From Parasynechococcus marenigrum WH 8102 (lineage in GTDB: Bacteria; Cyanobacteriota; Cyanobacteriia; PCC-6307; Cyanobiaceae), in assembly GCF_000195975.1 (NCBI RefSeq), contig NC_005070.1, positions 60,001 to 92,000 of the forward strand: a DNA stretch of 32,000 nucleotides. The letters are read 5' to 3'. How positions within the stretch are numbered: the first letter of the stretch is position 1; every line of letters starts with the position of its first letter. Below the pieces are notes generated by a model that saw only the letters and a list, made by a program, of their open reading frames with translations, had not been told where the DNA came from and searched no databases. Below are positions 11,108-31,843 of the stretch, piece after piece. Made by a program: the position numbers and the translations under genes.

Positions 11108-11125
11108 GGGTCGATGATGGCGGCG

Positions 11126-11743
11126 ATGGCCCAGGACCACCCGATCTTCACTGAAAGCATCCGGCGGATCCGTGTGGCTCTGGGTCCTACGGATCTGGAG
11201 CTGTTGCAACAGCAGGTGCTGGAGCGGTTAGTGCACAGCAGCGGCGACCTGGCCCTGGGGGCCTTACTGCGGTTCAGCCCCGGCGCCTGTGAAGCGGGTC
11301 TGACGGCCCTGCAGCAGGGAGCTCCAATCCTCACGGACACGGCCATGGCTGCGGCGGCGGTGGCGCCGATGGCCAAGCGCACGTTGCAAACGACGGTGCG
11401 CACGGTGCTGGAGTGGGCCCCGGATCAAGCGCCGCTGGGGTCGACGCGTACGGCAGCGGGGATGGAGCAGGCCTGGAGGGAGCTGTCAGCGGTCGGTCCT
11501 GCACCGCTGGTGTTGATCGGTAGCGCCCCCACGGCCCTGGAGGTGCTGCTGGAGCAGGTGGCTGCTGGAGCGCTATCTCCCAGCCTGGTGATCGGCATGC
11601 CGGTGGGGTTTGTCGGGGTGGCTGAAAGCAAACGCCATCTGGCTGAGAGCGGCCTGGCTCAGATCCGTCTGGAGGGCAGCCGCGGTGGGGCGGGACTGGT
11701 GGCTGCGGCGGTCAATGCCCTGCTGCGGGCGGCTGCAGGCTGA
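11126..11743 (+). CDS. cobH: Precorrin-8X methylmutase
   Basis: ORF 11096..11743. CobH/CbiC text is present: HPIFTESIRRI, RLVHSSGD, APILTDTAM, LIGSAPTAL, VIGMPVGFVGVAESK. The start is chosen at MAQDHPIF and is ambiguous between 11096 and 11126. Confidence 0.85.
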   Translation: MAQDHPIFTESIRRIRVALGPTDLELLQQQVLERLVHSSGDLALGALLRFSPGACEAGLTALQQGAPILTDTAMAAAAVAPMAKRTLQTTVRTVLEWAPDQAPLGSTRTAAGMEQAWRELSAVGPAPLVLIGSAPTALEVLLEQVAAGALSPSLVIGMPVGFVGVAESKRHLAESGLAQIRLEGSRGGAGLVAAAVNALLRAAAG

Positions 11744-13518: not shown

Positions 13519-13545
13519 ACACCGGAGCTGAACGGATCCACATAG

Positions 13546-13572
13546 GCTGAGCCACCGCCCGGTCGGCTCAGC
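13546..13572 (+). terminator. Hairpin between ycf23 and uvrB (possible intrinsic terminator or RNA stabiliser)
   Basis: An 8-bp perfect stem, gctgagcc (13546-13553) with ggctcagc (13565-13572), encloses an 11-nt loop. It is followed by tctttc and then the uvrB ATG at 13579. The T-tract is short and interrupted. Confidence 0.35.
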
Positions 13573-13578
13573 TCTTTC

Positions 13579-18347: not shown

Positions 18348-19061
18348 TCAGCTGCCGTCGCCCATTCGTTGCAAACGAGCCGGTTCATCTGGCGATGAAC
18401 ATGTCAGGGGGTAGCCAAAGGCATGGGCATCGCTGGCGTACAGCCAACGCACCTGTTGCTCCAGTGCTTGAAAGTCAGCCTCGGGGAGCTCGGGTAAGGG
18501 CCTGCGGGCTGGGTTGTCTTGCCCCAATCGAATCACCGGGTCGACGTGCTGTTGCAGCCAGTGTTCGAGTTTCTGCAGCTGCTCCTGGCGAAAAACGTGG
18601 ATTCGCCTGTCGGGTTGAGTGCCGCCTGGTTGGCTCACCAGGGTGTCCAGTTGCGGACGTAGGTGCGGATGGGGCAACCATCGAGCGATATCGATGTATT
18701 GCTCGAGGCTGAGTTGATGGAGATCGCCTTGGGTACGCCAGTGGTAGTACGCCACCAGATCGGGATCTGGATTGCGAAAGGATGAGAGCAACCGCCGCCA
18801 AGGATCCCTTACCACGCTGAACAACACCGCGTCCTTCACAACATCGGGAAACAACTTCTCGAGCTCCGTCAAGGTGAGGTGCTGCAGAAAGTTGCTGGAC
18901 AGGTTCTGCGCCAGCAGGTCGCGGCTCTGAATCAATCCAAAGCCGGTGTGCAGATTTTCCTGTTGCCAGGGTCCGAACAGGTTGAGGGCCTGCTCCACGG
19001 AGCTGCCGGCGGTTTTGGGAATGTGCAGAAAAACAAGCCGGCGTTGGCGATCAAAGGGCAT
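18348..19061 (-). CDS. Sulfotransferase, Sulfotransfer_2-like (carbohydrate sulfotransferase type)
   Basis: It has a 5'-PSB-like loop FLHIPKTAGSS near the N-terminus and a 3'-PB-like VVRDPWRRLLSS. It lies 36 nt upstream of mutS and 3 nt downstream of the GNAT gene, on the same strand. Confidence 0.7.
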   Translation of the reverse strand: MPFDRQRRLVFLHIPKTAGSSVEQALNLFGPWQQENLHTGFGLIQSRDLLAQNLSSNFLQHLTLTELEKLFPDVVKDAVLFSVVRDPWRRLLSSFRNPDPDLVAYYHWRTQGDLHQLSLEQYIDIARWLPHPHLRPQLDTLVSQPGGTQPDRRIHVFRQEQLQKLEHWLQQHVDPVIRLGQDNPARRPLPELPEADFQALEQQVRWLYASDAHAFGYPLTCSSPDEPARLQRMGDGS

Positions 19062-19064
19062 GGC

Positions 19065-19604
19065 TCAACGCTTCAGCACCAGGAGTTGCTGCGGGTCGGC
19101 ATCGCGGAACCCAAGTTGGCGATAGAACCCGGCGCTGTTGGTGGTCATCAGATAAATCCGTTCAACGCCAGCGACAGACGGGGTGTGCAGCAGCTCCTCC
19201 ACAATCCGTCGACCAAAGCCCCGACCCTGCAGGTCGCCGGCCACCACGATGTCCCACAGCACGGCGCGACTGAAGCCATCGGATGTGGCCCGCCCGAAGG
19301 CCACCAGGCGTTTGCCGCGCCAGAGGCTGACGACAGCAGTGCTGCCGGCCAGCAGCCGCCGCAGCTGATCAAAGCTGCGACCACGGGCCCAGGTTGCATG
19401 ACGGTCGAACAGACGTTGCAGCTTCAGCAGTGCCCTGCTGGGACGAAGATCTGGCCCCAGCCCCAGCCAACGCAGACCAGGGGCGCCGGGTGCGTGGCAA
19501 ACCAGCCGGATCGGGGTCACAGCCTGTAAACCGAATGGATGCATCCTGCCCGGCGATGGGCCAGTCCATGGGAGGATGCGCTCCAGCTTTGGTGGCCGGA
19601 CCAT
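19065..19604 (-). CDS. GNAT family N-acetyltransferase (ycf52-like)
   Basis: Acetyl-CoA-binding motif A text: VVAGDLQGRGFGRRIVEELL...YLMTTNSAGFYRQLGF. The likely start is the internal Met at 19544 (MHPFGLQ), because the longest ORF nearly abuts the psbZ ATG. Confidence 0.75.
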   Translation of the reverse strand: MVRPPKLERILPWTGPSPGRMHPFGLQAVTPIRLVCHAPGAPGLRWLGLGPDLRPSRALLKLQRLFDRHATWARGRSFDQLRRLLAGSTAVVSLWRGKRLVAFGRATSDGFSRAVLWDIVVAGDLQGRGFGRRIVEELLHTPSVAGVERIYLMTTNSAGFYRQLGFRDADPQQLLVLKR

Positions 19605-19607
19605 CCC

Positions 19608-19796
19608 ATGCAGTTCCTGAACACTCTCACCGTGCTGGCCCTGGTGGTGATGTCTTTTGCCTTGATCGTGGCTGTTCCGGTGCTTTATGCCTCCTCGGAA
19701 GATAGTGGTCGTTCCAATCGTCTGATTCTTTTGGGTAGTGCTGTGTGGGTCGCGCTGGTGCTGCTGAACTGGGGGGTCAGCTTCTTCGTGGTGTGA
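19608..19796 (+). CDS. psbZ: Photosystem II reaction centre protein Z
   Basis: The internal Met of ORF 19539..19796 gives a 62-aa two-helix protein: MQFLNTLTVLALVVMSFALIVAVPVLYASSEDSGRSNRLILLGSAVWVALVLLNWGVSFFVV. This is the PsbZ (Ycf9) size and text. Confidence 0.88.
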   Translation: MQFLNTLTVLALVVMSFALIVAVPVLYASSEDSGRSNRLILLGSAVWVALVLLNWGVSFFVV

Positions 19797-19797
19797 T

Positions 19798-19816
19798 GGC
19801 TCTTCTGTGAAGAGCC
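19798..19816 (+). terminator. Hairpin immediately after the psbZ stop
   Basis: ggctcttc-tgt-gaagagcc, an 8-bp perfect stem with a 3-nt loop, starts 2 nt after the TGA. No U-tract follows, so it may be a stabilising or processing hairpin rather than a classical terminator. Confidence 0.4.
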
Positions 19817-19852
19817 CCGAGTGCGAAGATCAGTCAATTCCGGCTGTGATCG

Positions 19853-20335
19853 ATGACGACGTTTGAAGGGCGGTTCACCGACACTGCGGATCTGCGCATC
19901 GCTGTTGTGGTGGCGCGATTCAACGATCTGGTGACGTCGAAGCTGCTCAGTGGATGTCTTGATTGTCTGTCAAGGCATGGCATTGATACAGCAGAGACCA
20001 GCTCTCAGCTGGATGTTGCTTGGGTTCCCGGTTCTTTTGAGTTACCCATCGTTGCTCAGAACCTTGCACAAAGTGGTCGTTATCAGGTGGTGATTACGCT
20101 TGGCGCTGTGATTCGTGGAGATACGCCTCACTTTGATGTTGTTGTTGCCGAAGCCAGTAAGGGGATCGCAACTGTGGCGCGCGAGTCGGGTGTTCCGGTG
20201 ATTTTTGGTGTGTTGACGACAGACACCATGCAGCAGGCTCTGGAGAGAGCAGGGATTAAAAGTAATTTGGGCTGGAGTTACGGCTTACAGGCTCTGGAAA
20301 TGGGAAGTTTGATGGCAGCACTGGCCCAGTCGTGA
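19853..20335 (+). CDS. ribH: 6,7-dimethyl-8-ribityllumazine synthase
   Basis: Motifs [42 protein letters not shown] and VIFGVLT. Confidence 0.93.
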
Positions 20336-21060
20336 GACTTCCAGACTTTCTCGGGATTGGCACCCAGAAAGGTGGAACCACGTTTGTGTACGAACTGCTG
20401 AAGCAGCATCCGCAGGTGTTTATGGCTGCTCCGAAAGAGCAGCATTTTTTTACGCTTCATTGGCAGCAAGGTGTTGACTGGTATCGAAATCAATTTGCAT
20501 TGGCAACAAGTGATCAGATGTGTGGAGAGGTAACTCCTTATTATTTATTTCATCCGGAAGCGCCACGGCGCATTCACTCTGTGATGCCGAGGACCAAGTT
20601 GATTGTCGTACTGCGGGATCCGGTTGAACGCGCCTTGTCTCAGTATTTCCACAGCAAGCGTTTGGGTCTGGAAGCATTGAGCTTGGAGGATGCTTTGGCT
20701 GCGGAGCCGCAGCGATTAGAGGATAGTGATGAGGTTTTAGCGACCGGCAAACCGCATCGAAGTCATCAGCAGCATAGTTATGTGAGTCGTGGACGGTATG
20801 AGCAACAAATCAGCCGTTTTAAGCAGTTTTTTTCTAACCAACAATTGCTGTTGATGCGCAGTGAGCAATTGTTTGCGCAGCCTGATGTTGCATGGAGACA
20901 AATTCTTGATTTTCTTGGCTTGAGTTTTGTTCAATGCCCTCAGCAAAAGCCTGTTTATGCTGGTGGTGGTGAGGCTGCCAATGTGTCCTCTGAAATTAAA
21001 AACCAATTGCGCCAACAGCTAAGTAGTACTTACCAATGGATGCAGGATAGTTTCGAATGA
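20332..21060 (+). CDS. Sulfotransferase, Sulfotransfer_1-like (heparan-sulfate sulfotransferase-like fold)
   Basis: PAPS 5'-PSB loop [14 protein letters not shown], then EQHFF, WYRNQF, GEVTPYY, and the 3'-PB text [19 protein letters not shown]. The GTG start overlaps the ribH stop (GTGA, 20332-20335). GC is low. Confidence 0.75.
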
Positions 21061-22268
21061 ACCTTCTTTTTATCCATGGTAACTTTCCGGGTCAGTTTAA
21101 GGATATTGCCCCTGCTCTTGCTTTGAATACCAACGGCAAGACATATTTTCTCAGTTTATCGGATAATCCCCAGAATATTGTTCTTCCGCGGGTTCAGTTT
21201 CGTCAATTTAAGCTGCATCGAGATGTCGGTTCTGAGACGCATGCCTATGTGCAATCGGCTGAGCTTGCTGTGCTCAAGGGACAAGCCGTGCTTCGTGCGC
21301 TTGATCAGTTGCATAAACAGGAAGGTTTTATGCCAGATGTTGTGATTTGCCACGGCGGCATGGGGTTTGGCCTTTTTGTGAAATCATTATTGCCTAATGT
21401 TCGCTTGATTTCCTACTTGGAGTGGTACTTTACGCCGTCAAATAGCCAAGAGTTGATTCTGAATCCCTCTATTAACGATTTTTGTCGTCTGGAATGTCGG
21501 AATATTCCTATTCTCCAGGAAGCAGCACAGGCTGATCAGCTGGTCTGTCCAACACGTTGGCAAAGGGATCAATTTCCAGCATTCATCAGGGATCGTATTC
21601 AGGTTGTTTTTGATGGCGTTGATCTTGATTTCTTCAGCCCCGGGCCTCCAGCTGATCCACTTGTTCTCAACGCCAATCGTGAATCACCACTGCAATTCAC
21701 ATCTGATCAGTTGTTGTTGACCTATGGAACGCGAGGGATGGAGCCACTCCGTGGTTTTCCTGAATTCATGCGGGCTGCTGCAGTTGCTCAACAGACGTTT
21801 CCTCAGTTACATGTCATTGTATTTGGAAAAGATCGTTCAGCTTATAGTTATCCAAGCCCTCACCCGAGTGGTAGTTGGAAACAATTCATGCTTGAACAGT
21901 TGGAAGGGCAGCTGGATCTAGAAAGGCTGCATTTTACAGGCTTACTCAATTACGGCGAGTTGGTTCAGTTGTTCCGTCGTAGCGATCTTCATTGTTATTT
22001 CACGCGTCCATATGTGGTGAGCTGGGGTGTTTTCCAAGCTGTTGCTTGCGGTGCTCGGTTGCTGGTGAATGACTTTGCAGGTATCGATGAAGTGTTTGAT
22101 GGAAAGCCCTTCTTCTCCCCGGTAGATCTCGACCATCAAGAGCAAATTAATGCCTCTGTTATTGAATGTCTGCGTGTTGAAAAGGAATCAAATGCTGTTA
22201 GTCTTCCCTCTTCGCTTTCACTGTCGTCATGCATTGCCCAATGGGTTGATTTAATCTTTTCTATGTAA
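21057..22268 (+). CDS. Glycosyltransferase, GT-B fold (GT4 / group-1-like)
   Basis: 403 aa. The N-terminal half is [14 protein letters not shown]...VICHGGMGFGLF. The C-terminal half resembles a Glycos_transf_1 donor-binding domain (LLTYGTRGMEPLRGF...FGKD...FTGLLNYGELVQLFRRSDLHCYFTRPYVVSWGVFQAVACGARLL). The ATG overlaps the upstream stop (ATGA, 21057-21060). This is the lowest-GC coding stretch in the window. Confidence 0.65.
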   Translation: MNLLFIHGNFPGQFKDIAPALALNTNGKTYFLSLSDNPQNIVLPRVQFRQFKLHRDVGSETHAYVQSAELAVLKGQAVLRALDQLHKQEGFMPDVVICHGGMGFGLFVKSLLPNVRLISYLEWYFTPSNSQELILNPSINDFCRLECRNIPILQEAAQADQLVCPTRWQRDQFPAFIRDRIQVVFDGVDLDFFSPGPPADPLVLNANRESPLQFTSDQLLLTYGTRGMEPLRGFPEFMRAAAVAQQTFPQLHVIVFGKDRSAYSYPSPHPSGSWKQFMLEQLEGQLDLERLHFTGLLNYGELVQLFRRSDLHCYFTRPYVVSWGVFQAVACGARLLVNDFAGIDEVFDGKPFFSPVDLDHQEQINASVIECLRVEKESNAVSLPSSLSLSSCIAQWVDLIFSM

Positions 22269-22478
22269 TCTTGTTCGTCAAAGGGTTTAGGTTTTTGCTT
22301 TGAATAAAGCGGTTGATTAAAGAGTATCTATCCCTCTTAGGGTTTTGTATGCTCTAAAAATTACTGACTGATGTTGCCCTTGAGGCCATATCATTAAATA
22401 TAGTATTTTTCTTTTGGATCTATGGGTGATTTTGGTTTTAATTTATTGGCGGTACTTTTCAGTTTGTTTGGTTGCCAA

Positions 22479-22506
22479 TAAAAAAGCCCCTCCTAAAGGA
22501 GGGGCT
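22479..22506 (-). terminator. Rho-independent terminator of the swmA-like gene (structurally bidirectional hairpin)
   Basis: A perfect 9-bp stem, agcccctcc (22485-22493) with ggaggggct (22498-22506), encloses a 4-nt loop. On the minus strand it is followed by TTTTTTATT. It lies 27 nt downstream of the stop at 22533. Confidence 0.85.
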
Positions 22507-22532
22507 GAATATTTGACTTGACGGTGATCAGA

Positions 22533-25100
22533 TCAAGCGAAAATCACAAGATCAGTTGAAGTCAATGTAGGCGCAGTAGCTCCGTTTAATAGAGTTGCAA
22601 CAGTAACTGCCGTGTTGTTAGTGCCAGTTCCGTCAGCGTCGAAGCTGAGGACACCGGTGTCTGTGTTGTACAGGAACTGTGCATAAGCCTGATCCACGAC
22701 TGCAGGGGCGGCTGTAGTACCAGACTTCAAGGCAGTTGCGTTGAAGGTGGATGCGTTGTCTCCAGATGGTGGAGTGTAGGAACCAACAATGGCTGAATTT
22801 GCATTTGATGAAATTGCAGCATCACTGAAGGCCAGAGCTTCACCGTTAAGAGAAATGGCCTCGTTCGAGAGAGCTGTGGTGTTTTGAGCATTAGCCGTAG
22901 CAGTGCTCTTTCCGTAATCGGTAATGGTATCTCCCCAGTTTGCAACTGTTGAGAAGTCGTAGAAATCAATTCCAAGACCACCAGTGATGCTGTCAACACC
23001 ACCGCCACCATTAAAGGTGTCAGCGCCAGCTGAACCTGTAATGGTGTCAGCGGAGGCACCGCCAGTGACATTCACTGAACCATCAGTTTCAGCGCTTGCG
23101 TTGAAGGTGAGCTTGCCTGTGAAGCTTGCATTGTTGGTCGTAACTGTCAGGCTCTTGCCGGATGCAATTGTTGTATCGAGGAGCGTGATGGATGCGTTGT
23201 CTTTTGCATTTTCCAGTTTGACGACTTCCACTTCAGACACTCTGTCGAGAATGTTGGTGGAGGCAGATTTGTGACTGAAAGCGATGGTATCAGTACCGTC
23301 ACCACCAGTGATGAGGTCGTCTTTAGAAAGGTCGGTGTTCAGATCGAGGTAGTCATCTCCATCACCACCAACAAGAATGTCGGTACCTTCAGTACCAGCA
23401 TCAATCGTGTCAGCTCCTTCACCACCGGTGAGGCTGTCACCACCGGATCCACCAGTGATTTGATCAGCGCCATCACCACCCAAAATGGTGTTGTCACCTT
23501 CAGTACCCTTCAGGATCATTCCCTGAGTGGCACCGTTACCTGCAGAGTTATCGATCAAGGAACCTGCAGTGGTTGCGCTTGCGGAGAGGTCAATACCAGC
23601 GATGTAGTCCTCTGCACTGCTGTCGAAGACGATTGATGAACCGGTGGTCACCGCATCTGTAGTGGCGATGATCAGACCTTCGGCCGCGATAGTACGCTTA
23701 CCATCTGTTCCAGCGCTCATCGTAACTCGATCGAACGAGTCAATATCGATGAAAGACAATGCCTCAGCGACATTTGCTTTTACGTAAGTGCCATCACCGA
23801 CAGTGATTGAGTCGACGACATCACCAGCGGTGAAGAATTCAGCGAAGGATGAATACTGAAGGCTAGTTGCGTATTTAGCATCTGTAGAACCTGCTGCGAC
23901 AATTGTGTCTACGCCAGCACCACCAATGACAGTGTGGAACTTTTCATCAGCAGCCGTAACTACAGTGTTGACGTTAATTGAGTCAGCACCTTCGCCGCCC
24001 GAAACCATGCTGGCTTCATTTGTGCCAATGCTGATGACGTCGTCGCCTTTGTCACCGTAGTACGTACGAGATCCATCGGCACTACTAATGATGGTGTCAT
24101 TACCTTGTCCACCGAAAATGGTTTCATCGGACTCAGAGGTAGCACCATCGATTTTGTCGTTGCCGGAATTACCCTTGGCTACTAATTCTGAACCAGCTCG
24201 GGCGGCAGTCAGGGAAAGTGTGTCAGCTCCATCGCCACCGAATACGCTTGCACCTGAAACAACACTAGCAATTTCAATTGTGTCGTTATCATTATCACCG
24301 TGAACAGCTACTGCAGCGGCTGTATCGATCTTGATTGAATCGTTGTCCTTGCCGCCGTAGAACCTGTTGCCAGTTCCCGCAAGAGTAAGATCGAGCGTAT
24401 CAGCACCCTCGCCACCCTTCGCGATCAGGTTGGAGTGAGAACCTGAGATAGATAGGTTGTCATTATCTCCACCAGCGTCAACTAAAGAATCCAGTGATTC
24501 AGCAACACTGATCGCGTCGCGGGCTGCACCGCCCCTAACGGTCACACTAGTGATCCGCTTGTTGAACGTGAGGGAGTCATCATCAGCACCACCGTCAACG
24601 ATGGTTCCACCACTCACCTTGTCGGTGAAAGTGATTGTGTCCTTATTGGTGTCTCCGTAGACAACTCCACCAACAACAGCTCGGTCGAAAGTGATGCTGT
24701 CAGCGGCCTTACCACCGTAAACCGAAGTGTTTGTGGTTGCACCCTTGATGGTGATGTAGTCAGCAGCTGCACCGCCTTTGATCATGGCGTCAGCAACGTC
24801 ACCCATTGCGGTGAGGGTGTCTGAGTCGCCTGCGCCATAGAGCTCAAAACCAGTTGAGGTCTCTTCGACAACGACCTCGTCGTTTCCTTCCTTGGCGTCA
24901 AGGAACCAATCCTTGAGCTCGGAAACTTCGATGTAGTCGGGATTGGAAGTACCGCCTGCGACGGTGGTGAGAGTTGCCACGGAAGGAATGTGGATAATGG
25001 CTTCCGACGAAGGGTATCGGCTTATTACACGGGATGTCAATCCATGTTCCGCTTCCGTGACTGGCGCGAATTCCAGCTGTGGCCATGCATTTGGCCTCAT
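22533..25100 (-). CDS. swmA: Cysteine-free RTX/beta-roll cell-surface (S-layer) protein, SwmA-like (non-flagellar swimming motility protein)
   Basis: 855 codons, rich in Gly/Asp/Thr/Ser/Ala with no Cys. Canonical GGxGxDxUx nonapeptide runs are present: LGGDGADQITGGSGGDSLTGGEGADTIDAG...VGGDGDDYL and TGGASADTITGSAGADTFNGGGGVDSITGGLGIDF. The N-terminal half carries degenerate ~18-20-aa Gly-Gly/Asp repeats. There is no N-terminal signal peptide. The C-terminus ends ...DTGVLSFDADGTGTNNTAVTVATLLNGATAPTLTSTDLVIFA, a type-I-secretion style acidic-then-hydrophobic end. The SwmA identification comes from my memory of the WH8102 protein (Ca-binding motifs, many N-x-S/T sequons) and is not verified. The start is ambiguous between ATG 25100 and in-frame TTG 25040. 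Confidence 0.8.
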   Translation of the reverse strand: MRPNAWPQLEFAPVTEAEHGLTSRVISRYPSSEAIIHIPSVATLTTVAGGTSNPDYIEVSELKDWFLDAKEGNDEVVVEETSTGFELYGAGDSDTLTAMGDVADAMIKGGAAADYITIKGATTNTSVYGGKAADSITFDRAVVGGVVYGDTNKDTITFTDKVSGGTIVDGGADDDSLTFNKRITSVTVRGGAARDAISVAESLDSLVDAGGDNDNLSISGSHSNLIAKGGEGADTLDLTLAGTGNRFYGGKDNDSIKIDTAAAVAVHGDNDNDTIEIASVVSGASVFGGDGADTLSLTAARAGSELVAKGNSGNDKIDGATSESDETIFGGQGNDTIISSADGSRTYYGDKGDDVISIGTNEASMVSGGEGADSINVNTVVTAADEKFHTVIGGAGVDTIVAAGSTDAKYATSLQYSSFAEFFTAGDVVDSITVGDGTYVKANVAEALSFIDIDSFDRVTMSAGTDGKRTIAAEGLIIATTDAVTTGSSIVFDSSAEDYIAGIDLSASATTAGSLIDNSAGNGATQGMILKGTEGDNTILGGDGADQITGGSGGDSLTGGEGADTIDAGTEGTDILVGGDGDDYLDLNTDLSKDDLITGGDGTDTIAFSHKSASTNILDRVSEVEVVKLENAKDNASITLLDTTIASGKSLTVTTNNASFTGKLTFNASAETDGSVNVTGGASADTITGSAGADTFNGGGGVDSITGGLGIDFYDFSTVANWGDTITDYGKSTATANAQNTTALSNEAISLNGEALAFSDAAISSNANSAIVGSYTPPSGDNASTFNATALKSGTTAAPAVVDQAYAQFLYNTDTGVLSFDADGTGTNNTAVTVATLLNGATAPTLTSTDLVIFA
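22953..23069 (-). repeat. Canonical RTX nonapeptide block 2
   Basis: aa 678-716: VTGGASADTITGSAGADTFNGGGGVDSITGGLGIDFYDF. Confidence 0.85.
23283..23489 (-). repeat. Canonical RTX nonapeptide block 1
   Basis: aa 538-606: TILGGDGADQITGGSGGDSLTGGEGADTIDAGTEGTDILVGGDGDDYLDLNTDLSKDDLITGGDGTDTI. Confidence 0.85.
23886..24848 (-). repeat. Degenerate beta-roll/beta-helix-like repeats in the N-terminal half of the swmA-like gene
   Basis: aa ~85-405 show recurring xYGGxxxDxIxF / GGxGADxLxL-type units, for example YGGKAADSITF, YGDTNKDTITF, DGGADDDSLTF, RGGAARDAISV, AGGDNDNLSI, KGGEGADTLDL, YGGKDNDSIKI, HGDNDNDTIEI, FGGDGADTLSL, FGGQGNDTII, YGDKGDDVISI, SGGEGADSINV and IGGAGVDTIV. Confidence 0.75.
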
Positions 25101-25192
25101 CCCCTAGCAGTGCAGGCCGTCCTGAGTCTTGACCAAGGGACCGTTGGTAGTCCATGATGCATTGGCCGACGGACGAGGTCTGCGGCAAATTT

Positions 25193-25264
25193 GCGGATGT
25201 AGCTCAGTGGTAGAGCATCTCCTTGCCAAGGAGAGGGTCGAGAGTTCGAATCTCTTCATCCGCT
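25193..25264 (+). tRNA. trnG-GCC: tRNA-Gly (anticodon GCC)
   Basis: Hand-folded cloverleaf of 72 nt. The acceptor is GCGGATG/CATCCGC. The D-arm is GCTC-AGTGGTA-GAGC. The anticodon arm is TCTCC-TTGCCAA-GGAGA (anticodon GCC). The variable loop is GGGTC. The T-arm is GAGAG-TTCGAAT-CTCTT, and the discriminator is T. CCA is not encoded. Confidence 0.93.
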
Positions 25265-25591: not shown

Positions 25592-28405
25592 ATGCTCAAG
25601 CTCCTGCTGGGTGACCCCAATGCCCGCAAGCTGAAGCGCTACCAGCCGATTGTGTCCGACATCAATCTGCTGGAGGAGGACATATTCCCTCTTTCGGATG
25701 ATGCCCTGCGGGACAAGACGGCAGCCTTCCAGGAGCAGCTGGCGAGTGCGGGCAGCCTCGAGAATCAGCGGCCGATCCTCGATGAGATCCTGCCGGAGGC
25801 CTTTGCAGTGGTGCGTGAGGCCGGTAAGCGTGTGCTCGGTATGCGCCACTTCGATGTTCAATTGATCGGCGGCATGGTGCTGCATGAGGGTCAGATCGCT
25901 GAAATGAAAACTGGGGAAGGCAAGACCCTGGTGGCCACGTTGCCCAGCTACCTCAACGCCCTCACTGGTCGTGGTGTGCATGTGGTCACCGTCAACGACT
26001 ACCTCGCCCGTCGTGATGCGGAATGGATGGGGCAGGTGCATCGCTTCCTCGGTCTCTCTGTGGGCTTGATCCAGCAGGACATGCGTCCTGAGGAAAGGCG
26101 CCGCAACTACAACTGCGACATCACCTACGCCACTAACTCCGAGTTGGGCTTCGACTACCTGCGGGACAACATGGCCGCAGACATCAGCGAAGTCGTTCAA
26201 CGGGAGTTTCAATACTGCGTGATCGACGAGGTTGACTCGATCCTGATCGATGAAGCCCGCACGCCGTTGATCATTTCCGGCCAGGTGCAGCGGCCCCAGG
26301 AGAAATACCAGCAGGCGGCCCAGGTTGCGCAGGCGCTCACTAGGGCTGCGGAGATGGGGAAAGACGGCATTGATCCGGAAGGCGACTACGAGGTCGACGA
26401 GAAGCAGCGCAGCTGCACCCTCACCGATGAGGGCTTCGCCAAGGCTGAGCAGATGCTGGGGGTGCAGGATCTGTTTGATCCCCAGGACCCCTGGGCCCAC
26501 TACATCACCAATGCCCTCAAGGCCAAGGATCTGTTCGTTAAGGACGTTAATTACATCGTTCGTGATGGCGAAGCCGTGATCGTTGATGAGTTCACCGGTC
26601 GTGTGATGCCCGGCCGTCGCTGGAGCGATGGCCAACACCAGGCGATTGAAGCCAAGGAAGCGCTGCCGATTCAGGCTGAAACCCAAACCCTTGCGTCCAT
26701 CACCTACCAGAATTTCTTCCTGCTCTACCCGCGCCTGGCAGGGATGACCGGCACGGCCAAAACGGAAGAGGTGGAGTTCGAGAAGACCTACAAGCTCGAA
26801 ACCACCATCGTCCCCACCAACCGGGTCCGCGCCCGCCAGGACTGGCCCGACCAGGTCTACAAAACAGAAACCGCCAAGTGGCGGGCTGTGGCCAACGAAA
26901 CCGTTGATATTCACAAGAACGGCAGGCCCGTGTTGGTGGGCACCACCTCCGTTGAAAAGAGCGAACTGCTTAGTGCCCTGCTGGCTGAGCAAGAGATTCC
27001 CCACAACCTGCTCAACGCCAAGCCGGAGAACGTTGAGCGGGAATCGGAAATCGTGGCTCAGGCCGGTCGCGCCGGGGCGGTCACCATCGCCACCAACATG
27101 GCGGGTCGTGGTACCGACATCATTCTTGGTGGCAACAGCGATTACATGGCTCGGCTCAAGCTGCGCGAGGTGTTGCTGGGTCGATTGGTGAAACCCGAGG
27201 AGAATCACAAACCACCCGTTCCCTTGCAGCGCAACGCCGCGGCAGGCTTTTCAGAGGCGCCAACCGCGTCGGCGACCCCCAGTCGCGACAGCCTCTACCC
27301 CTGTGTTCTCACGGACGACACCGATCAGACTCTGGCTCAGCTGGCTCGGGATCTGGTGAAGGCCTGGGGCGATCGGGCCTTGACCTTGATCGAGCTGGAG
27401 GAACGCATTGCCACGGCAGCCGAGAAGGCTCCCACCGATGACCCCAACATTCAGGCCCTGCGTGCGGCCACCGCTCGAGTTAAGGGTGAGTTCGATGCAG
27501 TGGTCAAGCAGGAAGAGCAGCGGGTTCGCGAAGCCGGTGGGTTGCATGTGATCGGCACCGAGCGGCACGAATCTCGCCGGGTCGACAACCAGTTGCGTGG
27601 CCGTGCCGGCCGCCAGGGTGATCCGGGCTCCACACGCTTTTTCCTCTCCCTCGGCGACAACCTGCTGCGGATCTTCGGGGGTGACCGGGTGGCCGGGTTG
27701 ATGAATGCCTTCCGGGTGGAAGAGGATATGCCGATCGAATCCGGCATGCTCACCCGTTCGTTGGAAGGCGCTCAGAAGAAGGTGGAAACCTATTACTACG
27801 ACATCCGTAAACAGGTGTTCGAATACGACGAGGTGATGAACAATCAGCGCCGCGCCGTGTATTCCGAACGCCGCCGTGTGTTGGATGGCCGTGCCCTTAA
27901 AAAACAGGTGATTGGTTACGGCGAACGCACGATGAATGAGATCGTGGAGGCCTATGTGAACCCCGATCTGCCGCCGGAGGAGTGGGATACGGCGCAGTTG
28001 GTCGCCAAGGTGAAGGAGTTTGTTTATCTCTTGGAGGATCTCACCCCCGAGCAGGTGCAGGGCCTAGGGATGGACGAACTCAAAGCATTCCTGCAGGAAC
28101 AGCTGCGCAATGCCTACGACATCAAGGAGGGTCAGGTGGAGCAGCAGCGCCCTGGTTTGATGCGAGAAGCGGAACGCTTTTTCATCCTTCAACAGATCGA
28201 TACCCTCTGGCGCGAACACCTCCAGGCCATGGATGCCCTCAGGGAATCCGTCGGTTTGCGTGGTTATGGTCAGAAGGATCCACTGATCGAATATAAAAAC
28301 GAGGGCTACGACATGTTCCTCGAAATGATGACGAACATGCGGCGGAATGTGATCTACTCCATGTTTATGTTCCAACCTGCCGCTCCTCAACAGAGTCAGG
28401 TCTGA
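25592..28405 (+). CDS. secA: Preprotein translocase ATPase SecA
   Basis: The N-terminus is [19 protein letters not shown]. Walker A context is [14 protein letters not shown], and the DEAD-like motif is [31 protein letters not shown] is also present. Confidence 0.97.
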
Positions 28406-28412
28406 AGGCGTC

Positions 28413-29363
28413 ATGTCTCCCTGGTCGTCACCCTTGCTACGTCGCCCTTGGTTCGGCCATCGACCTCTTCTTTCTGTGGTGGTGGTTTCTTACAACATGA
28501 CCCGGGAGCTCAAGCGCACCCTTTATTCGCTATCGCCGAAATTTCAAAGGGATGTGAAGGCTCAGGACTACGAGGTGATTGTGGTAGACAACGGCTCAAC
28601 CCTGCCGCCTGATCCGTCGGATTGGATTCAACGGCCAGGTTGGTCAGTCCGTGTGGTTTGCTGGCCAGCCTGGGATGTGTCGCCCTGTCGTGCCGTGAAT
28701 GCGGGTGTTGCTCAGGCCCGGGCACGTCATGTTTGTGTGATGGTTGATGGTGCTCGCATGGTGTCGCCTGGGTTGATCTCAGGAATGCTGAATATCCTGC
28801 GAGCTGACCCTGATGCCCTGGCCATTACCCTTGGCTTTCATCTGGGCATGCAGCCGCAAAATGTATCGATCACCCAGGGTTATAACCAAAGGGAGGAAGA
28901 TCGACTGTTGCGAAAGATTCGCTGGCGTAACAATGGATATCAGCTGTTTTCAGTTTCTTGTTTGGCGTTGTCATCAGCCGGGGGCTGGTTTGCCCCCATC
29001 ACCGAAAGTAATTGTTTTGCGTTGAAGCGCAAACGTTTTCAGGAGCTGGGTGGTTTTGACGAACGCTTTCAATCACCTGGTGGTGGCCTCGTGAACCTCG
29101 ATTTTTTCCGAACGGCTATCGCATCACCGCTGTTGCGTCCCTGGATGCTTCTCGGTGAAGGCAGTTTTCATCAGATCCACGGCGGTGTTGCAACCAATGT
29201 GCCGATGGAGAAGCATCCTGGCCTGCAATTCGCCCTGGAGTATGAACAGATCCGCGGCGAATCTTATGCACCACCGCGCTACGAACCTTCGTACTACGGA
29301 TCGCTGCCGGAGGTGACCCGGCGTTGGATTGACCCTTCAACGGCAGTGACCAATGCGTCATGA
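28413..29363 (+). CDS. Glycosyltransferase family 2 (GT-A fold)
   Basis: LSVVVVSYNMTRELKRTLYSL...YEVIVVDNGS followed by MVDGARM (a DxD-like position). It starts only 7 nt after the secA stop. Confidence 0.7.
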   Translation: MSPWSSPLLRRPWFGHRPLLSVVVVSYNMTRELKRTLYSLSPKFQRDVKAQDYEVIVVDNGSTLPPDPSDWIQRPGWSVRVVCWPAWDVSPCRAVNAGVAQARARHVCVMVDGARMVSPGLISGMLNILRADPDALAITLGFHLGMQPQNVSITQGYNQREEDRLLRKIRWRNNGYQLFSVSCLALSSAGGWFAPITESNCFALKRKRFQELGGFDERFQSPGGGLVNLDFFRTAIASPLLRPWMLLGEGSFHQIHGGVATNVPMEKHPGLQFALEYEQIRGESYAPPRYEPSYYGSLPEVTRRWIDPSTAVTNAS

Positions 29364-31012
29364 AATTGTTCATGACCCTGTTGGTGCGGGATGAGGCCGA
29401 CATTCTGGCCTTAAACCTCGAACACCATCTCGCCCAAGGTATTGATTTCTTCATCGTGACCGATAACGGTTCGGTGGATGCCACACCAGAGATTCTTCAA
29501 ACGTACGCCGATCGCGGTTTGCTGGAACTGATTCAGGAACCATCGGAAACTTATGCCCAGGCGGTGTGGGTCACGCGCATGGCCCAGCGGGCGGCAGCCC
29601 TTGGAGCTGATTGGGTGATTCACGCTGATGCCGATGAATTCTGGATCGCTGCGCAGCCGGGGCTGCGGGTGCGTCAGGTGGTTCGGCGACTTCCCAAGGA
29701 TCAATTGATCCTTGCCGTTCAGCGTTGGAACGCTGCCCTGTCGCGCCATGTTGAACGCCTTGATTGCGTTGAACCAACGACGATTCGCTGGTACGACAGC
29801 GATTCGCGCAATGCGGTTGGTCGCCCCTTGCCGCCCAAGGTGTTGCACCGCGGTTGCTCCGATGTGCAGATTGATCAGGGCAATCACAGCCTGACCTGGC
29901 CTGATGCTGCGGAACCGACCCACAGCTCTTCGGAGCTGCTGATCCTGCATCTGCCTCTGCGGGGGTATCGGCACTACGAACGCAAAATACGCCAGGGTGG
30001 TCGTTCCTATGCCTCCAACCCAGACCTGCCGGCCCGTCTGGGGGGAACCTGGCGTCAGGAGCATTTGATCTATCTCGCTGGAGATCTGCGTCGCCGTTGG
30101 CGCGAGCAGTTGCTCTCCATGTCTCAGCTGTTGCGTGGCCGCTTAACAGGTCGTTTTCGCCAGCCGCCCAACCCAATCACGCCGGCTCAACCCAGCCGTG
30201 GCGTGATCTGTCTGGCGGACGACAACTACTTCTTTGGTGTACGGCTGCTGTATCAGTCCCTAGCGGGGCAGGTTCCCCTCACCGTCTATGACCTTGGACT
30301 TGGTGATCGTGCTCGTCGTTGGGTGGACAGCCACAACGGCATCAGCATCCGGCCGATTCCACAGTCGCCACTGGTGCAGGCCGTGCGGGAGGCCTGCGGA
30401 GAGCGCAGCCTGGCCAAGGCCACCAAGCGTGAATGGCCGTTATGGATCTGCCCAGAGTTGCTGTTGGATGCTCCTTATCAGCAGGTCGCCTGGATTGATG
30501 CGGATGCGGTGGTGCTTCGCGGCCTGCCGAAGCTGTTCCAGCGCATCAATCGAGCCCCCTTCATCACACCGGAGAATCTGGCGCCGGAGCTAACCGCCAA
30601 TCCCTATGAGTTGTATGAGGCGCTCCCCCTGGCCCGTGGGCGCCCCTCAGCGCCGCCGATTCTCCTGAATGCTGGTGTCAGCGGTTGGGATCAGCAGCGT
30701 GATCGTCATCTTCTTGAGGCTTACAACCACCCCGTGCGTTGCATCTTTCAGGGGAAGTCTCTGAATCGTGAACTGGTGCGTTGGCATGACCAGGGTTGTT
30801 TGATCTGGGCTCTGCAAAACGCCGGATATGACGCTTCAATTCTTCAACATCGACGCTGGAATCTTTGTGTCCGTCACAGCGGACTGGCTGGTTTGAAGGT
30901 CGATCCATCCAGCTGTGATCTGGAGATTCAGGCCTGGTTGGACCATGCCCGTTCCTTAGAGCCAAAGGCCAACATTGTTCACTGGAATGGCCACACCGTC
31001 CCTTGGCTCTAA
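29360..31012 (+). CDS. Two-domain glycosyltransferase: N-terminal GT2-like (Glyco_tranf_2_4-like) plus C-terminal GT8-like nucleotide-diphospho-sugar transferase
   Basis: The N-domain reads LVRDEADILALNLEHHLAQGIDFFIVTDNGSVDAT...WVIHADADEFW. The C-domain reads VICLADDNYFFGVRLLYQSL...VAWIDADAVVLRGL...LNAGVSGW, a GT8-like DxD and fold text. The ATG overlaps the upstream stop (ATGA, 29360-29363). Confidence 0.65.
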   Translation: MKLFMTLLVRDEADILALNLEHHLAQGIDFFIVTDNGSVDATPEILQTYADRGLLELIQEPSETYAQAVWVTRMAQRAAALGADWVIHADADEFWIAAQPGLRVRQVVRRLPKDQLILAVQRWNAALSRHVERLDCVEPTTIRWYDSDSRNAVGRPLPPKVLHRGCSDVQIDQGNHSLTWPDAAEPTHSSSELLILHLPLRGYRHYERKIRQGGRSYASNPDLPARLGGTWRQEHLIYLAGDLRRRWREQLLSMSQLLRGRLTGRFRQPPNPITPAQPSRGVICLADDNYFFGVRLLYQSLAGQVPLTVYDLGLGDRARRWVDSHNGISIRPIPQSPLVQAVREACGERSLAKATKREWPLWICPELLLDAPYQQVAWIDADAVVLRGLPKLFQRINRAPFITPENLAPELTANPYELYEALPLARGRPSAPPILLNAGVSGWDQQRDRHLLEAYNHPVRCIFQGKSLNRELVRWHDQGCLIWALQNAGYDASILQHRRWNLCVRHSGLAGLKVDPSSCDLEIQAWLDHARSLEPKANIVHWNGHTVPWL

Positions 31013-31051
31013 CGACCGAAATCAACGCGCTCCATACAATCCTTTGATCGA

Positions 31052-31843
31052 TTGCTGGGGCTGGTGTTGATCCGGAGGATTTGGCCGTGGTACTCGCGAC
31101 CTCGCGGTCCGCAGCAGGTTCTAACGGTGCTGGGCATGCACCGCAGTGGCACCAGCCTGCTGACCGGAACTCTGCAGGAGGCCGGATTGGTGTTGGGGGA
31201 TGTTGTGACGGCCGCCCCACACAACCGCAAGGGCAACCGCGAATCATTGCCGATCCGTGCGTTGCACGACGACTTGATGCAGCGAGCCGGTGGCGACTGG
31301 GATCGGCCACCGCAACAGGTGAGCTGGCAGCCGGTGCACACAGCACTGCGGGATGCCGTGATTGATTCCCATCTCCATGACAGCTTCTGGGGGTTCAAGG
31401 ATCCCCGCACACTGTTCTGCCTCGAGGGTTGGCTCGATGTGCTGCCGAATCTGCAGATGGTGGCGATTGTTCGCCATCCCGAAGCTGTGGCTCGGTCTCT
31501 GCAGGCTCGCAATGGCATGGCCTTGGCGGATGGCCTGGAACTTTGGCGCCTTTACAACGCACGCCTCCTGGACTGGCTCGAGCGTCGGCCAGGGATGCCG
31601 CTCTTGCATTTCGACGACGATTTAGGTCGCTTCCGCGTCGATGTCGTCGCGTTAACGACAACCCTTGCGTTGCCCAGACGACTCAAGTCCGATGCGCTCC
31701 GTTTCCCGGATGCAGCGCTGCAACACCAGCGATCGGGCCAGGAACCCTTGCCTCCGGCGGTGGATGCCTTGTATCAGCAGCTGCTTGAGCGGCGCTTCAG
31801 CCTGTGTTTTCCCCCAGAAACTCCAAGATCTCTCGATCTTTAA
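31052..31843 (+). CDS. Sulfotransferase family protein (Sulfotransfer_3-like)
   Basis: P-loop-like 5'-PSB VLTVLGMHRSGTSLL, then FWGFKDPR, and 3'-PB-like VAIVRHPEAVARSL. The track start is a TTG; the true start could be up to ~20 codons downstream. Confidence 0.6.
   Translation: MLGLVLIRRIWPWYSRPRGPQQVLTVLGMHRSGTSLLTGTLQEAGLVLGDVVTAAPHNRKGNRESLPIRALHDDLMQRAGGDWDRPPQQVSWQPVHTALRDAVIDSHLHDSFWGFKDPRTLFCLEGWLDVLPNLQMVAIVRHPEAVARSLQARNGMALADGLELWRLYNARLLDWLERRPGMPLLHFDDDLGRFRVDVVALTTTLALPRRLKSDALRFPDAALQHQRSGQEPLPPAVDALYQQLLERRFSLCFPPETPRSLDL

What the first reader, a model, noticed from the sequence alone, without database searches (positions are those of the whole stretch)
22533..25100. SwmA-like protein has no signal peptide, a T1SS-type C-terminus and no exporter genes nearby
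**Seen.**
- The protein has zero cysteines.
- About 13 degenerate Gly-Gly/Asp repeats fill the N-terminal half.
- Two canonical GGxGxDxUx blocks lie in the C-terminal half.
- A non-repetitive middle segment spans aa ~405-530.
- At least a dozen N-x-S/T sequons cluster toward the C-terminal third (for example NAS, NNAS, FNAS, NVT, DNAS, FNAT, NNT).
- The extreme C-terminus ends ...STDLVIFA.
- I can see no hydrophobic N-terminal signal.

**Established.** RTX proteins and cyanobacterial RTX-type S-layer proteins are exported by type I secretion through a C-terminal signal.

**Inference.** Export depends on an ABC/MFP/TolC system encoded outside this window, not on the adjacent SecA. The start codon is also ambiguous. 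ATG 25100 gives 855 aa and in-frame TTG 25040 gives 835 aa.
Basis: partly seen in the sequence, partly recalled or inferred. Interest (0 to 1): 0.65.

Follow-up and report, generated by a model that had tools for sequence, protein, structure and literature searches.

The report
Known swimming S-layer protein SwmA
This gene is swmA of the marine cyanobacterium Synechococcus WH8102, a calcium-binding surface-layer protein described in 1996; its signal-less, RTX-type build and remote exporter genes are already published, and the only correction is that it most likely starts at a third codon (GTG 24980, 815 aa).

Summary
It has no cysteine, 12 strict GGxGxDxUx motifs, the tail ...STDLVIFA and no signal peptide. 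It is not merely SwmA-like. Its 835-aa and 815-aa versions match exactly two proteins on a 2,434,428-bp contig, and the 835-aa mass (83,568 Da) equals that tabulated for SwmA NP_896180.1 (SYNW0085) of Synechococcus WH8102.

The window holds no ABC, MFP or TolC gene. A 2010 RTX survey already lists WH8102's HlyB-class ABC genes (SYNW0193, SYNW0411, SYNW0959) and one MFP gene (SYNW0410) elsewhere in the genome.

AlphaFold predicts Ca-type beta-rolls. The best fold match is RsaA, the Caulobacter S-layer protein.

Syntenic orthologues of 40-47% identity all begin at the GTG homologous to 24980, giving 815 aa. One of them has an in-frame stop 36 nt upstream. TTG 25040 is the first three bases of a conserved TTGACA -35 box.

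The sequons are not enriched over what the composition predicts (13 observed against 9.5 +/- 2.7 expected).

Verdict: already known, low interest.

The parts
22533..24980 (-). swmA coding sequence with the best-supported start. GTG 24980 gives 815 aa, and the stop codon is at 22533-22535.
   Evidence: The 815-aa translation equals P0128 and the 835-aa one equals P0126, both on a 2,434,428-bp contig. Orthologues P0004, P0005 and P0007 all start at the homologous GTG, reading V-A-T-(L/Q).
24981..25100 (-). In-frame upstream extension (the 855-aa and 835-aa annotations). It is most likely non-coding promoter and leader DNA.
   Evidence: ATG 25100 is absent from the three divergent orthologous loci. 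Frame-breaking indels lie upstream of the GTG. In-frame stops lie 36, 48 and 117 nt upstream in L005, L003 and L004.
25035..25040 (-). Conserved TTGACA, a putative -35 box of the swmA promoter. Its first three bases are the 'TTG 25040' start candidate.
   Evidence: Invariant in all five aligned loci (A3). Coordinates were read.
25011..25016 (-). TACCCT, a putative -10 box of TAnnnT form. It lies 18 nt after the TTGACA and 30 nt before the GTG.
   Evidence: TAnnnT sits at the same spacing in all lineages: TACCCT, TAGTGT, TAACGT, TACCAT. The generic promoter scan did not call it, because only 3 of 6 bases match TATAAT.
25045..25064 (-). Conserved element CCAGTCA(C/G)GGAAGCGGAACA just upstream of the -35 box. 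Its function is unknown; it could be an UP element or a regulator site.
   Evidence: Invariant, apart from the single C/G position, across lineages whose SwmA proteins are only 40-47% identical.
25193..25264 (+). tRNA-Gly(GCC), divergent from swmA. It lies between secA and swmA.
   Evidence: ARAGORN and Rfam RF00005 at 74 bits. The same tRNA lies 201-212 nt upstream of swmA in L001-L005.
22485..22506 (-). Intrinsic-terminator-like hairpin of 9 pairs (7 of them G-C) followed by a T-run. It lies 27 nt after the swmA stop.
23895..24935 (-). N-terminal beta-helix. It spans aa 16-362 of the 815-aa form and has about 17 turns built of 19-20-aa Gly/Asp repeats.
   Evidence: The repeat spacing is 19-21 aa. 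AlphaFold gives pLDDT 87-98 here, with strands every ~10 residues. Foldseek matches the 19-aa-repeat Ca-bound beta-helix 3P4G.
23541..23867 (-). Non-repetitive mixed alpha/beta middle domain (aa 372-480).
   Evidence: AlphaFold secondary structure. No Pfam family passes threshold.
23274..23516 (-). Canonical RTX nonapeptide beta-roll, block 1 (aa 489-569 of the 815-aa form).
   Evidence: Pfam PF00353. PDB sequence hits to the CyaA RTX domain (8e-21), to T1SS lipases and to AlgE6. Strands recur every 9 residues.
22953..23063 (-). Canonical RTX nonapeptide block 2 (aa 640-676): GSAGADTFN GGGGVDSIT GGLGIDFYD.
22692..22883 (-). Hypervariable, low-confidence linker (aa 700-763). It carries several of the sequons.
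   Evidence: pLDDT is below 50. Identity to every orthologue is 2-30%, with large indels.
22536..22685 (-). C-terminal tail, aa 766-815 (...FLYNTDTGVLSFDADGTGTNNTAVTVATLLNGATAPTLTSTDLVIFA). It is the presumed uncleaved type I secretion signal.
   Evidence: The same motif sits at the extreme C-terminus of about 20 unrelated RTX proteins among the search hits. It ends in an acidic residue followed by hydrophobic residues.
20332..22268 (+). Sulfotransferase (20332-21060) and GT4 glycosyltransferase (21057-22268), convergent with swmA. They are syntenic in all orthologous loci.
   Evidence: Pfam, synteny, no TM-like segment.
28413..31843 (+). Two GT2 glycosyltransferases (28413-29363 and 29360-31012) and a sulfotransferase (31052-31843), downstream of secA.
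   Evidence: Pfam, synteny in L001 and L002, no TM-like segment.
25592..28405 (+). secA (937 aa), a housekeeping neighbour. It is not part of the SwmA export route as far as the evidence goes.
   Evidence: ORF and translation. SecA Pfam domains in the syntenic genes of L001 and L002.

Best explanation
The ORF is swmA (SYNW0085) of Synechococcus sp. WH8102. SwmA is the abundant, glycosylated, Ca2+-dependent S-layer protein required for thrust in non-flagellar swimming.

Shown here:
- It is an acidic, cysteine-free protein without a signal peptide.
- It is predicted to form a long beta-helix of 19-20-aa Gly/Asp repeats, a small middle domain, two canonical RTX beta-rolls, a hypervariable disordered linker and a roughly 50-aa C-terminal tail of a type shared with other RTX proteins.
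- Translation most likely starts at GTG 24980, giving 815 aa. Transcription would come from a conserved TTGACA-N18-TAnnnT promoter that overlaps the mis-annotated upstream 'starts'.
- The gene ends at a strong terminator.

Inferred:
- The unfolded chain leaves the cytoplasm C-terminus-first through a type I system. That system would use one of the HlyB-class ABC transporters encoded far from the window (SYNW0193, SYNW0411 or SYNW0959), an MFP and an outer-membrane duct.
- The protein then folds on binding external Ca2+ and assembles on the outer membrane.
- SecA next door is only a housekeeping neighbour.
For: Identity:
- The window's 835-aa and 815-aa products are exact matches to proteins on a 2,434,428-bp contig.
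- The 835-aa mass computed here is 83,568.0 Da. The table in PMC3034196 gives 83,568.9 Da for SwmA NP_896180.1, 835 aa.

RTX build:
- PF00353 scores 2e-13 and there are 12 strict nonapeptides.
- PDB sequence hits go to the CyaA RTX domain and to T1SS lipases.
- The AlphaFold model has mean pLDDT 83.6 and is all beta-roll or beta-helix.
- The best Foldseek hits are RsaA (E 1.2e-5), CyaA RTX and the Ca-bound beta-helix 3P4G.

No signal peptide.

Tail: the motif is shared with about 20 other RTX proteins, always at the extreme C-terminus.

Exporters:
- None lies in the window.
- HlyB-class ABC genes SYNW0193, SYNW0411 and SYNW0959 and the MFP gene SYNW0410 are listed for WH8102 in Suppl. Table S2 of PMC3034196.

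Start codon.

Biology of SwmA: S-layer, 130 kDa, glycosylated, released by EDTA, needed for thrust (PMC3034196; PMC3342319).
Against: - Export was not tested here, and the cognate ABC/MFP/OMP set was not read from sequence. I rely on a published table.
- That table lists no TolC-type gene for WH8102.
- No curated T1SS-signal model hits the tail.
- The tail differs between SwmA orthologues. A18-40 has an unrelated one.
- The promoter is a comparative inference. The -10 box matches TATAAT in only 3 of 6 positions and the generic scan did not call it.
- There are no TSS or N-terminal peptide data available to me. The primary SwmA papers were not held in the library.
Confidence: 0.85

Rival explanations
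1. The 855-aa or 835-aa form is the real product. Its N-terminal 20-40 residues would act as a cleavable or unconventional signal, and export would use the adjacent SecA (Sec route).
For: The upstream frame is open from ATG 25100 in WH8102, A18-40 and the MAG. Several genome annotations use 855 or 835 aa. secA is the next gene.
Against: - The extension has no hydrophobic core and no basic n-region.
- Its conservation is at the DNA level and continues into the non-coding spacer.
- ATG 25100 is missing from the divergent orthologues, and in-frame stops lie upstream of their GTG.
- TTG 25040 sits in a conserved TTGACA.
- secA is a universally conserved housekeeping gene that is syntenic here whatever the swmA allele.
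Confidence: 0.04
2. SwmA reaches the surface by a route other than classical type I secretion. Examples are a dedicated uncharacterised transporter, or release with outer-membrane material. On this reading the RTX-like tail serves folding or anchoring, not secretion.
For: No TolC-type gene is listed for WH8102 in the RTX survey. The tail is not conserved among SwmA orthologues. No curated T1SS-signal model matches it.
Against: - Every sequence and fold relative with a known export route is a T1SS substrate: CyaA, lipases, alkaline protease, RsaA.
- The genome carries three HlyB-class ABC genes and an MFP gene.
- From memory, unverified here: transposon hits in multicomponent transporter genes abolish swimming and affect SwmA localisation (McCarren & Brahamsha 2005, 2009).
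Confidence: 0.08

Closest known systems
SwmA (SYNW0085, NP_896180.1) of Synechococcus sp. WH8102; Brahamsha 1996
   Same: It is the same protein. The sequence is identical from either annotated start, the 835-aa mass matches, and the neighbourhood matches other clade III strains.
   Different: Nothing biological differs. Only the start differs between annotations. The original WH8102 record uses 835 aa and other strains use 855 aa. The 815-aa form supported here also already exists on the same contig.
RsaA, the S-layer protein of Caulobacter crescentus (PDB 6P5T, 5N8P, 6Z7P)
   Same: It is the best structural match (E 1.2e-5, probability 1.0). By general knowledge it is a signal-less, Ca2+-dependent, beta-rich S-layer protein secreted by a type I system through an uncleaved C-terminal signal.
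   Different: Sequence identity is about 16% and TM-score about 0.18-0.24, so only the fold class is shared. By general knowledge RsaA is not glycosylated and has no role in motility. SwmA has a long 19-20-aa-repeat helix that RsaA lacks.
Region IV of the Marinomonas primoryensis antifreeze/ice-binding adhesin (PDB 3P4G)
   Same: It is a Ca2+-bound parallel beta-helix built of about 19-residue repeats, with one Gly/Asp loop per turn. It matches the N-terminal half (TM-score normalised to the target 0.33-0.39).
   Different: The function differs (ice binding). 3P4G is one domain of a giant adhesin. Sequence identity is 18-20%.
Canonical RTX T1SS substrates (CyaA RTX blocks, Pseudomonas lipases, alkaline protease AprA)
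   Same: They share the GGxGxDxUx beta-roll, an acidic pI, a lack of Cys, and a C-terminal end with an acidic residue followed by hydrophobic residues.
   Different: In those systems the ABC/MFP genes usually sit next to the substrate gene. Here they are more than 100 genes away by locus number (SYNW0085 against SYNW0193). SwmA is structural, not a toxin or an enzyme.
Cyanobacterial RTX surface proteins: Sll1951 (Synechocystis S-layer) and oscillin (Phormidium)
   Same: They are grouped with SwmA as RTX proteins of cyanobacteria tied to S-layers and motility. Oscillin is glycosylated (PMC3034196).
   Different: They did not appear among the listed sequence relatives. I made no direct comparison.

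Membership tests
SwmA (Synechococcus clade III swimming S-layer protein) | Sequence identity to the characterised WH8102 protein | tested here: met
   The 835-aa and 815-aa translations are exact members of the collection on a 2,434,428-bp contig. The computed mass of 83,568.0 Da compares with 83,568.9 Da published for NP_896180.1.
SwmA (Synechococcus clade III swimming S-layer protein) | Conserved genomic context: tRNA-Gly / secA on one side and GT4, sulfotransferase and ribH on the other | tested here: met
   The same order occurs in A18-40 (L001), a MAG (L002) and three metagenome contigs (L003-L005).
SwmA (Synechococcus clade III swimming S-layer protein) | Forms the S-layer and is required for swimming thrust | not testable with these tools
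   Literature only (PMC3034196; PMC3342319).
RTX protein family | Tandem GGxGxDxUx nonapeptide repeats | tested here: met
   PF00353 scores E 2e-13 at 50.4 bits against a cutoff of 23. There are 12 strict matches, and two runs of three consecutive units.
RTX protein family | Parallel beta-roll fold | tested here: met
   The AlphaFold model has pLDDT 83.6, with strands at a 9-residue period over aa 489-569. Foldseek matches CyaA RTX, lipases and alkaline protease. This is a prediction, not an experiment.
RTX protein family | Acidic pI, few or no Cys, no N-terminal signal peptide | tested here: met
   The pI is about 4.05 here and 3.71 in the published table. There are 0 Cys. The maximum 19-residue hydropathy is about 1.1.
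RTX protein family | Uncleaved C-terminal secretion signal | tested here: inconclusive
   The tail motif recurs at the extreme C-terminus of about 20 other RTX proteins and ends in D-L-V-I-F-A. No curated model matches it, and it is not conserved across SwmA orthologues. Function was not tested.
Type I secretion system substrate | Cognate ABC transporter, MFP and TolC-like duct in the genome | not testable with these tools
   Only the window and 10-kb flanks of related loci could be read, and none is present there. The published table lists the ABC genes SYNW0193, SYNW0411 and SYNW0959 and the MFP gene SYNW0410 for WH8102, and no OMP.
Sec or Tat substrate | N-terminal signal peptide (basic n-region with hydrophobic h-region, or a twin-arginine motif) | tested here: not met
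   None is present in the 815-, 835- or 855-aa N-termini. The upstream extension is probably not translated.

The most novel reading that the evidence does not exclude
SwmA may be glycosylated, possibly with sulfated sugars, in the cytoplasm. The enzymes would be the soluble glycosyltransferases and PAPS-type sulfotransferases that flank it in a low-GC island. SwmA would then pass through a type I secretion channel as a glycoprotein, a route for which I know no established precedent.

The evidence does not exclude this:
- All six flanking enzymes lack TM-like segments.
- A type I route bypasses the periplasm.
- SwmA is reported to be glycosylated.

The alternative is that these enzymes build a surface glycan or LPS to which SwmA anchors.
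Probability: 0.2. Interest if true: 0.55.

Novelty: already known. Interest (0 to 1): 0.12.

Why it matters
The practical value is annotation hygiene.
- Public records of the same gene carry three different starts (855, 835 and 815 aa).
- The comparative data here favour 815 aa and place the swmA promoter inside the spurious N-terminal extension. This matters for anyone making fusions, antibodies or N-terminal proteomics assignments for SwmA.

The unresolved biology cannot be advanced from this window alone. Open questions are how the swimming motor works, which of the three HlyB-class transporters exports SwmA, and where SwmA is glycosylated.

Tried and rejected
- **Primary SwmA papers.** I tried Brahamsha 1996 (PMC39053), McCarren et al. 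2005 (PMC538829 and PMC1151762), 2007 (PMC1797281) and 2009 (PMC2632085), plus Scanlan 2009 (PMC2698417). None is held. The N-terminal sequencing and transporter-mutant results therefore could not be checked and are cited only from memory.
- **Locus-tag search.** A full-text search for SYNW0085, SYNW0087, SYNW0088, SYNW0193, SYNW0194 and SYNW0195 found no paper. The tags were found only in the supplement of PMC3034196.
- **Reaching the WH8102 T1SS genes by sequence.**
  - The tools give at most 10-kb flanks of window-encoded or search-returned proteins, so the region around SYNW0193 could not be read.
  - I looked up one RTX hit on a 2.34-Mb contig (P0085) hoping for a picocyanobacterial RTX/T1SS locus to use as a query. 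It had only an oligopeptide ABC importer next to it.
  - I ran no further search on a generic HlyB query, because WH8102's copy would not rank among the 120 hits listed.
- **NCBIfam and Pfam on the tail, N-terminal half and middle domain.** No family passed threshold.
- **Double-glycine leader.** I considered one (MATLTTVAGG|T) because cyanobacterial HlyB-class ABC proteins carry C39-like domains. I rejected it because the GG is not conserved in the orthologues.
- **Generic sigma-70 scan.** It did not call the proposed promoter. That proposal rests on cross-lineage conservation.
- **Rfam.** It found only the tRNA.
Full report
**1. What is at the coordinates**

An 855-codon ORF runs on the minus strand from ATG 25100 to the stop at 22533-22535. 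My recount confirms most of the description.
- There is no Cys. G, A, T, D and S make up 58% of residues.
- There are 12 strict GGxGxDxUx motifs. Runs of consecutive nonapeptides lie at aa 541-567 and 689-715 in 855-aa numbering.
- The C-terminus is ...STDLVIFA, and there is no hydrophobic N-terminal stretch.
- Pfam recognises only HemolysinCabind (E 2e-13).
- The N-terminal half holds about 15-16 units with a 19-21-residue period. The Pfam RTX model does not recognise them at threshold (E 0.034).

The sequon statement is overstated. There are 13 N-x-S/T in all, 8 at aa 635-828 and 5 in the N-terminal half. Shuffles give 9.5 +/- 2.7 overall (P = 0.14). For the last 221 aa the figures are 8 observed against 5.05 +/- 1.85 (P = 0.09).

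**2. Identity**

The search of 5.8 billion proteins returned the window protein itself, then relatives at 71-72% identity. [quoted passage not shown] A18-40]'.

The cluster look-up gave the following.
- Members of the 90% cluster carry the same name in WH8103, A18-46.1 and RS9915.
- Two members of 835 aa (P0126) and 815 aa (P0128) are exact sub-sequences of the window ORF. Both sit on a contig of 2,434,428 bp.
- Their names are masked, which the tool does for window-encoded proteins.

The supplementary table of the RTX review by Linhartova et al. [quoted passage not shown] WH 8102. It gives 835 aa, 83,568.9 Da, pI 3.71 and 14 Ca sites. The mass I compute for P0126 is 83,568.0 Da. The window is therefore the swmA locus (SYNW0085) of WH8102. 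The protein is SwmA, not a SwmA-like protein.

**3. Neighbourhood**

Pfam scans of the long ORFs give this gene order:
- tig, asd, dapA, RNase J, aspartate kinase, a PIN protein, holA, tilS, uvrB, mutS;
- a sulfotransferase, a GNAT acetyltransferase and ribH;
- a sulfotransferase (20332-21060) and a GT4 glycosyltransferase (21057-22268);
- swmA, then tRNA-Gly(GCC) at 25193-25264, then secA (25592-28405);
- two GT2 glycosyltransferases (28413-29363 and 29360-31012) and another sulfotransferase (31052-31843).

There is no ABC exporter, MFP or TolC gene in the window. None lies in the additional flank seen in A18-40 and a related MAG. 'No exporter genes nearby' is therefore correct.

**4. Exporters elsewhere**

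I could not read the rest of the genome with these tools. Suppl. Table S2 of PMC3034196 lists the following for WH8102:
- nine RTX proteins, including SYNW0085;
- three HlyB-class ABC transporters: SYNW0193 (972 aa), SYNW0411 (956 aa) and SYNW0959 (1007 aa);
- one MFP, SYNW0410 (420 aa);
- no TolC-type protein.

From memory, not verifiable here: McCarren & Brahamsha (J Bacteriol 2005, 187:4457) isolated non-swimming transposon mutants in three gene clusters that include multicomponent transporters and glycosyltransferases. Their 2009 paper (191:1111) showed effects on SwmA production and localisation. The library confirms only the titles of these papers. It also holds one second-hand statement that disruption of three glycosyltransferases abolished swimming.

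**5. Structure**

An AlphaFold2 model of the 815-aa form was built with a 30-sequence alignment. It has mean pLDDT 83.6 and pTM 0.69. It predicts five regions.
- A regular beta-helix over aa 16-362, with two short strands per 19-20-aa repeat (block-mean pLDDT 87-98 over most of its length, one 10-residue block at 71).
- A mixed alpha/beta domain over aa 372-480.
- Beta-rolls with a 9-residue period over aa 489-569 and again around 640-697.
- A disordered stretch over aa 700-763 (pLDDT below 50).
- A small C-terminal beta unit over aa 768-814.

Foldseek against the PDB ranks the Caulobacter S-layer protein RsaA first (6P5T, E 1.2e-5, probability 1.0). Next come the CyaA RTX domain, the Ca2+-bound 19-residue-repeat beta-helix of the Marinomonas antifreeze adhesin (3P4G), T1SS lipases and alkaline protease. 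TM-scores are low (about 0.2), as expected for elongated multi-domain chains, so only the fold class is shared. Sequence search of the PDB hits CyaA RTX (8e-21), lipases and AlgE6 over aa 483-577.

**6. The C-terminus**

The last ~45 residues are FLYNTDTGVLSFDADGTGTNNTAVTVATLLNGATAPTLTSTDLVIFA.
- The same motif occurs at the extreme C-terminus of about 20 otherwise unrelated RTX proteins among the hits. They come from Nostoc, Oryzicola, Microvirga and many metagenomic proteins. The form is [FY]-x-Y-[DN]-x-x-T-G-x-L-x-[FYW]-D-x-D-G-x-G ... L-x-x-x-D-[FI]-x-[VI].
- Its position and its acidic-then-hydrophobic end are what is expected of a type I signal of the protease/lipase class (general knowledge).
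- No curated Pfam or NCBIfam model matches it.
- The last ~135 aa are the most variable part of SwmA in every comparison (2-30% identity up to aa ~760; 10-53% in the final ~55 aa). A18-40 carries an unrelated tail.

The secretion-signal assignment therefore remains an inference.

**7. Start codon**

Public annotations of this same gene use three starts: 855 aa (WH8103, A18-46.1, RS9915), and 835 aa and 815 aa (both on the WH8102-size contig). Several observations favour the third, GTG 24980.
- Three syntenic orthologues were recovered from metagenomes (P0004, P0005, P0007; 40-47% identity). Their loci carry the same tRNA-Gly 201-212 nt upstream. L003 and L004 also carry the GT4 gene downstream, and L003 has the sulfotransferase and ribH as well.
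- All three begin V-A-T-(L/Q) at a GTG homologous to 24980.
- In L005 an in-frame TAA lies 36 nt upstream, with no alternative start between. In L003 and L004 in-frame stops lie 48 and 117 nt upstream.
- ATG 25100 is not conserved in these loci. The alignment upstream of the GTG contains 1-, 2-, 4- and 5-nt indels.
- TTG 25040 is conserved only as the first three bases of an invariant TTGACA. Eighteen nt later comes TAnnnT in every lineage: TACCCT at 25016-25011 in the window, and TAGTGT, TAACGT and TACCAT elsewhere. The GTG follows 30 nt after that.

The generic scan did not call this promoter, because the -10 box matches TATAAT in only 3 of 6 positions. It remains a comparative inference.

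After the GTG, the first substitutions between WH8102 and A18-40 fall at third codon positions. The single substitution between 25100 and 24980 changes the amino acid.

A strong terminator-like hairpin lies at 22506-22485, 27 nt after the stop.

**8. Mechanism**

Shown:
- identity with SwmA;
- the RTX and beta-helix build;
- lack of a signal peptide;
- a tail of a type shared with other RTX proteins;
- absence of exporter genes in the window.

From the literature:
- SwmA forms the S-layer, runs at 130 kDa and is glycosylated.
- It is released by EDTA and is needed for thrust but not torque.
- The S-layer subunits appear elongated and tilted in electron micrographs, which fits the predicted rod-like beta-helix.

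Inferred:
- one-step export of the unfolded chain by one of the HlyB-class ABC transporters together with an MFP and an outer-membrane duct;
- Ca2+-driven folding outside the cell;
- no role for SecA in this route.

**9. Novelty and score**

The protein, its Ca-binding motifs, its potential N-glycosylation sites and its surface location were published in 1996 (my memory of the abstract; secondary confirmation). Its RTX classification and the WH8102 T1SS-type genes were tabulated in 2010. The finding is already known.

The small additions here are the argument for the 815-aa start and promoter, the fold prediction, and the recurrence of the tail motif.

The most novel reading not excluded concerns where SwmA is glycosylated. 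The flanking enzymes all look cytoplasmic, and a type I route bypasses the periplasm. SwmA may therefore be glycosylated before export. I give this about 0.2.

Noticed in passing
window 24981-25192 (-), with tRNA-Gly at 25193-25264 (+): The 212-nt spacer between the divergent tRNA-Gly(GCC) and swmA is almost invariant among clade III strains whose SwmA proteins are only 71-72% identical. Blocks of it persist in lineages with 40-47% identical SwmA: CCAGTCAsGGAAGCGGAACA, TTGACA, CCGATA and CTTCCGTG. It probably holds two back-to-back promoters. A TTGACC-N18-CATGAT match for the tRNA lies at 25129-25158 (+).
   Followed up: partly
window 18348-24980, compared with 1-18311: swmA (50.9% GC) and the adjacent sulfotransferase-to-GT4 block (52.6%) form a low-GC island beside housekeeping genes at 64.8% GC. 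Neighbour proteins also diverge unevenly between WH8102 and the L003 lineage: ribH 94%, GT4 71%, sulfotransferase 63%, SwmA 47% identity. The island therefore evolves much faster than its flanks.
   Followed up: partly
swmA alleles: window compared with L002 (MAG P0002) and L001 (A18-40 P0003): Divergence is mosaic. Compared with WH8102, P0002 is 98-100% identical over aa 1-120 (90% over 121-160), 50-70% over 200-440, 80-95% over 441-640 and 30% or less over 681-760. A18-40 carries an unrelated C-terminal ~135 aa. This suggests recombination or module exchange between S-layer alleles, including the presumed secretion tail.
   Followed up: partly
L003, L004, L005 (metagenome contigs): Syntenic swmA orthologues with only 40-47% identity exist in uncultured picocyanobacteria; all three keep the upstream tRNA-Gly, and L003 and L004 the downstream GT4. 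A 2020 comparative-genomics paper (PMC7522525) describes swmA as specific to clade III. I did not establish the lineage of these contigs.
   Followed up: no
window 18348-19061 (-), 20332-21060 (+), 31052-31843 (+); 21057-22268, 28413-29363, 29360-31012 (+): Three sulfotransferase genes and three glycosyltransferase genes surround swmA. None has a TM-like segment (maximum 19-residue hydropathy below 1.5). This hints at a cytoplasmically built, possibly sulfated glycan for SwmA or for its anchor.
   Followed up: partly
window 22536-22685 (-): The SwmA tail motif (Y-[DN]-x-x-T-G-x-L-x-F-D-x-D-G-x-G ... D-[FILV]-x-[VI]) recurs at the very end of about 20 unrelated RTX proteins. No Pfam or NCBIfam model in the libraries searched covers it.
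   Followed up: partly
window 9352-9798 (-), with small overlapping ORFs at 9779-10087 and 9795-10145 (-): A PIN-domain protein (E 8.6e-14) has a short ORF just upstream on the same strand. This is the layout of a VapBC-type toxin-antitoxin pair, lying between the aspartate kinase gene and holA.
   Followed up: no
window 6593-7591 (-): A 332-aa ORF between RNase J and aspartate kinase has no Pfam match. I did not assess whether it is a real gene.
   Followed up: no
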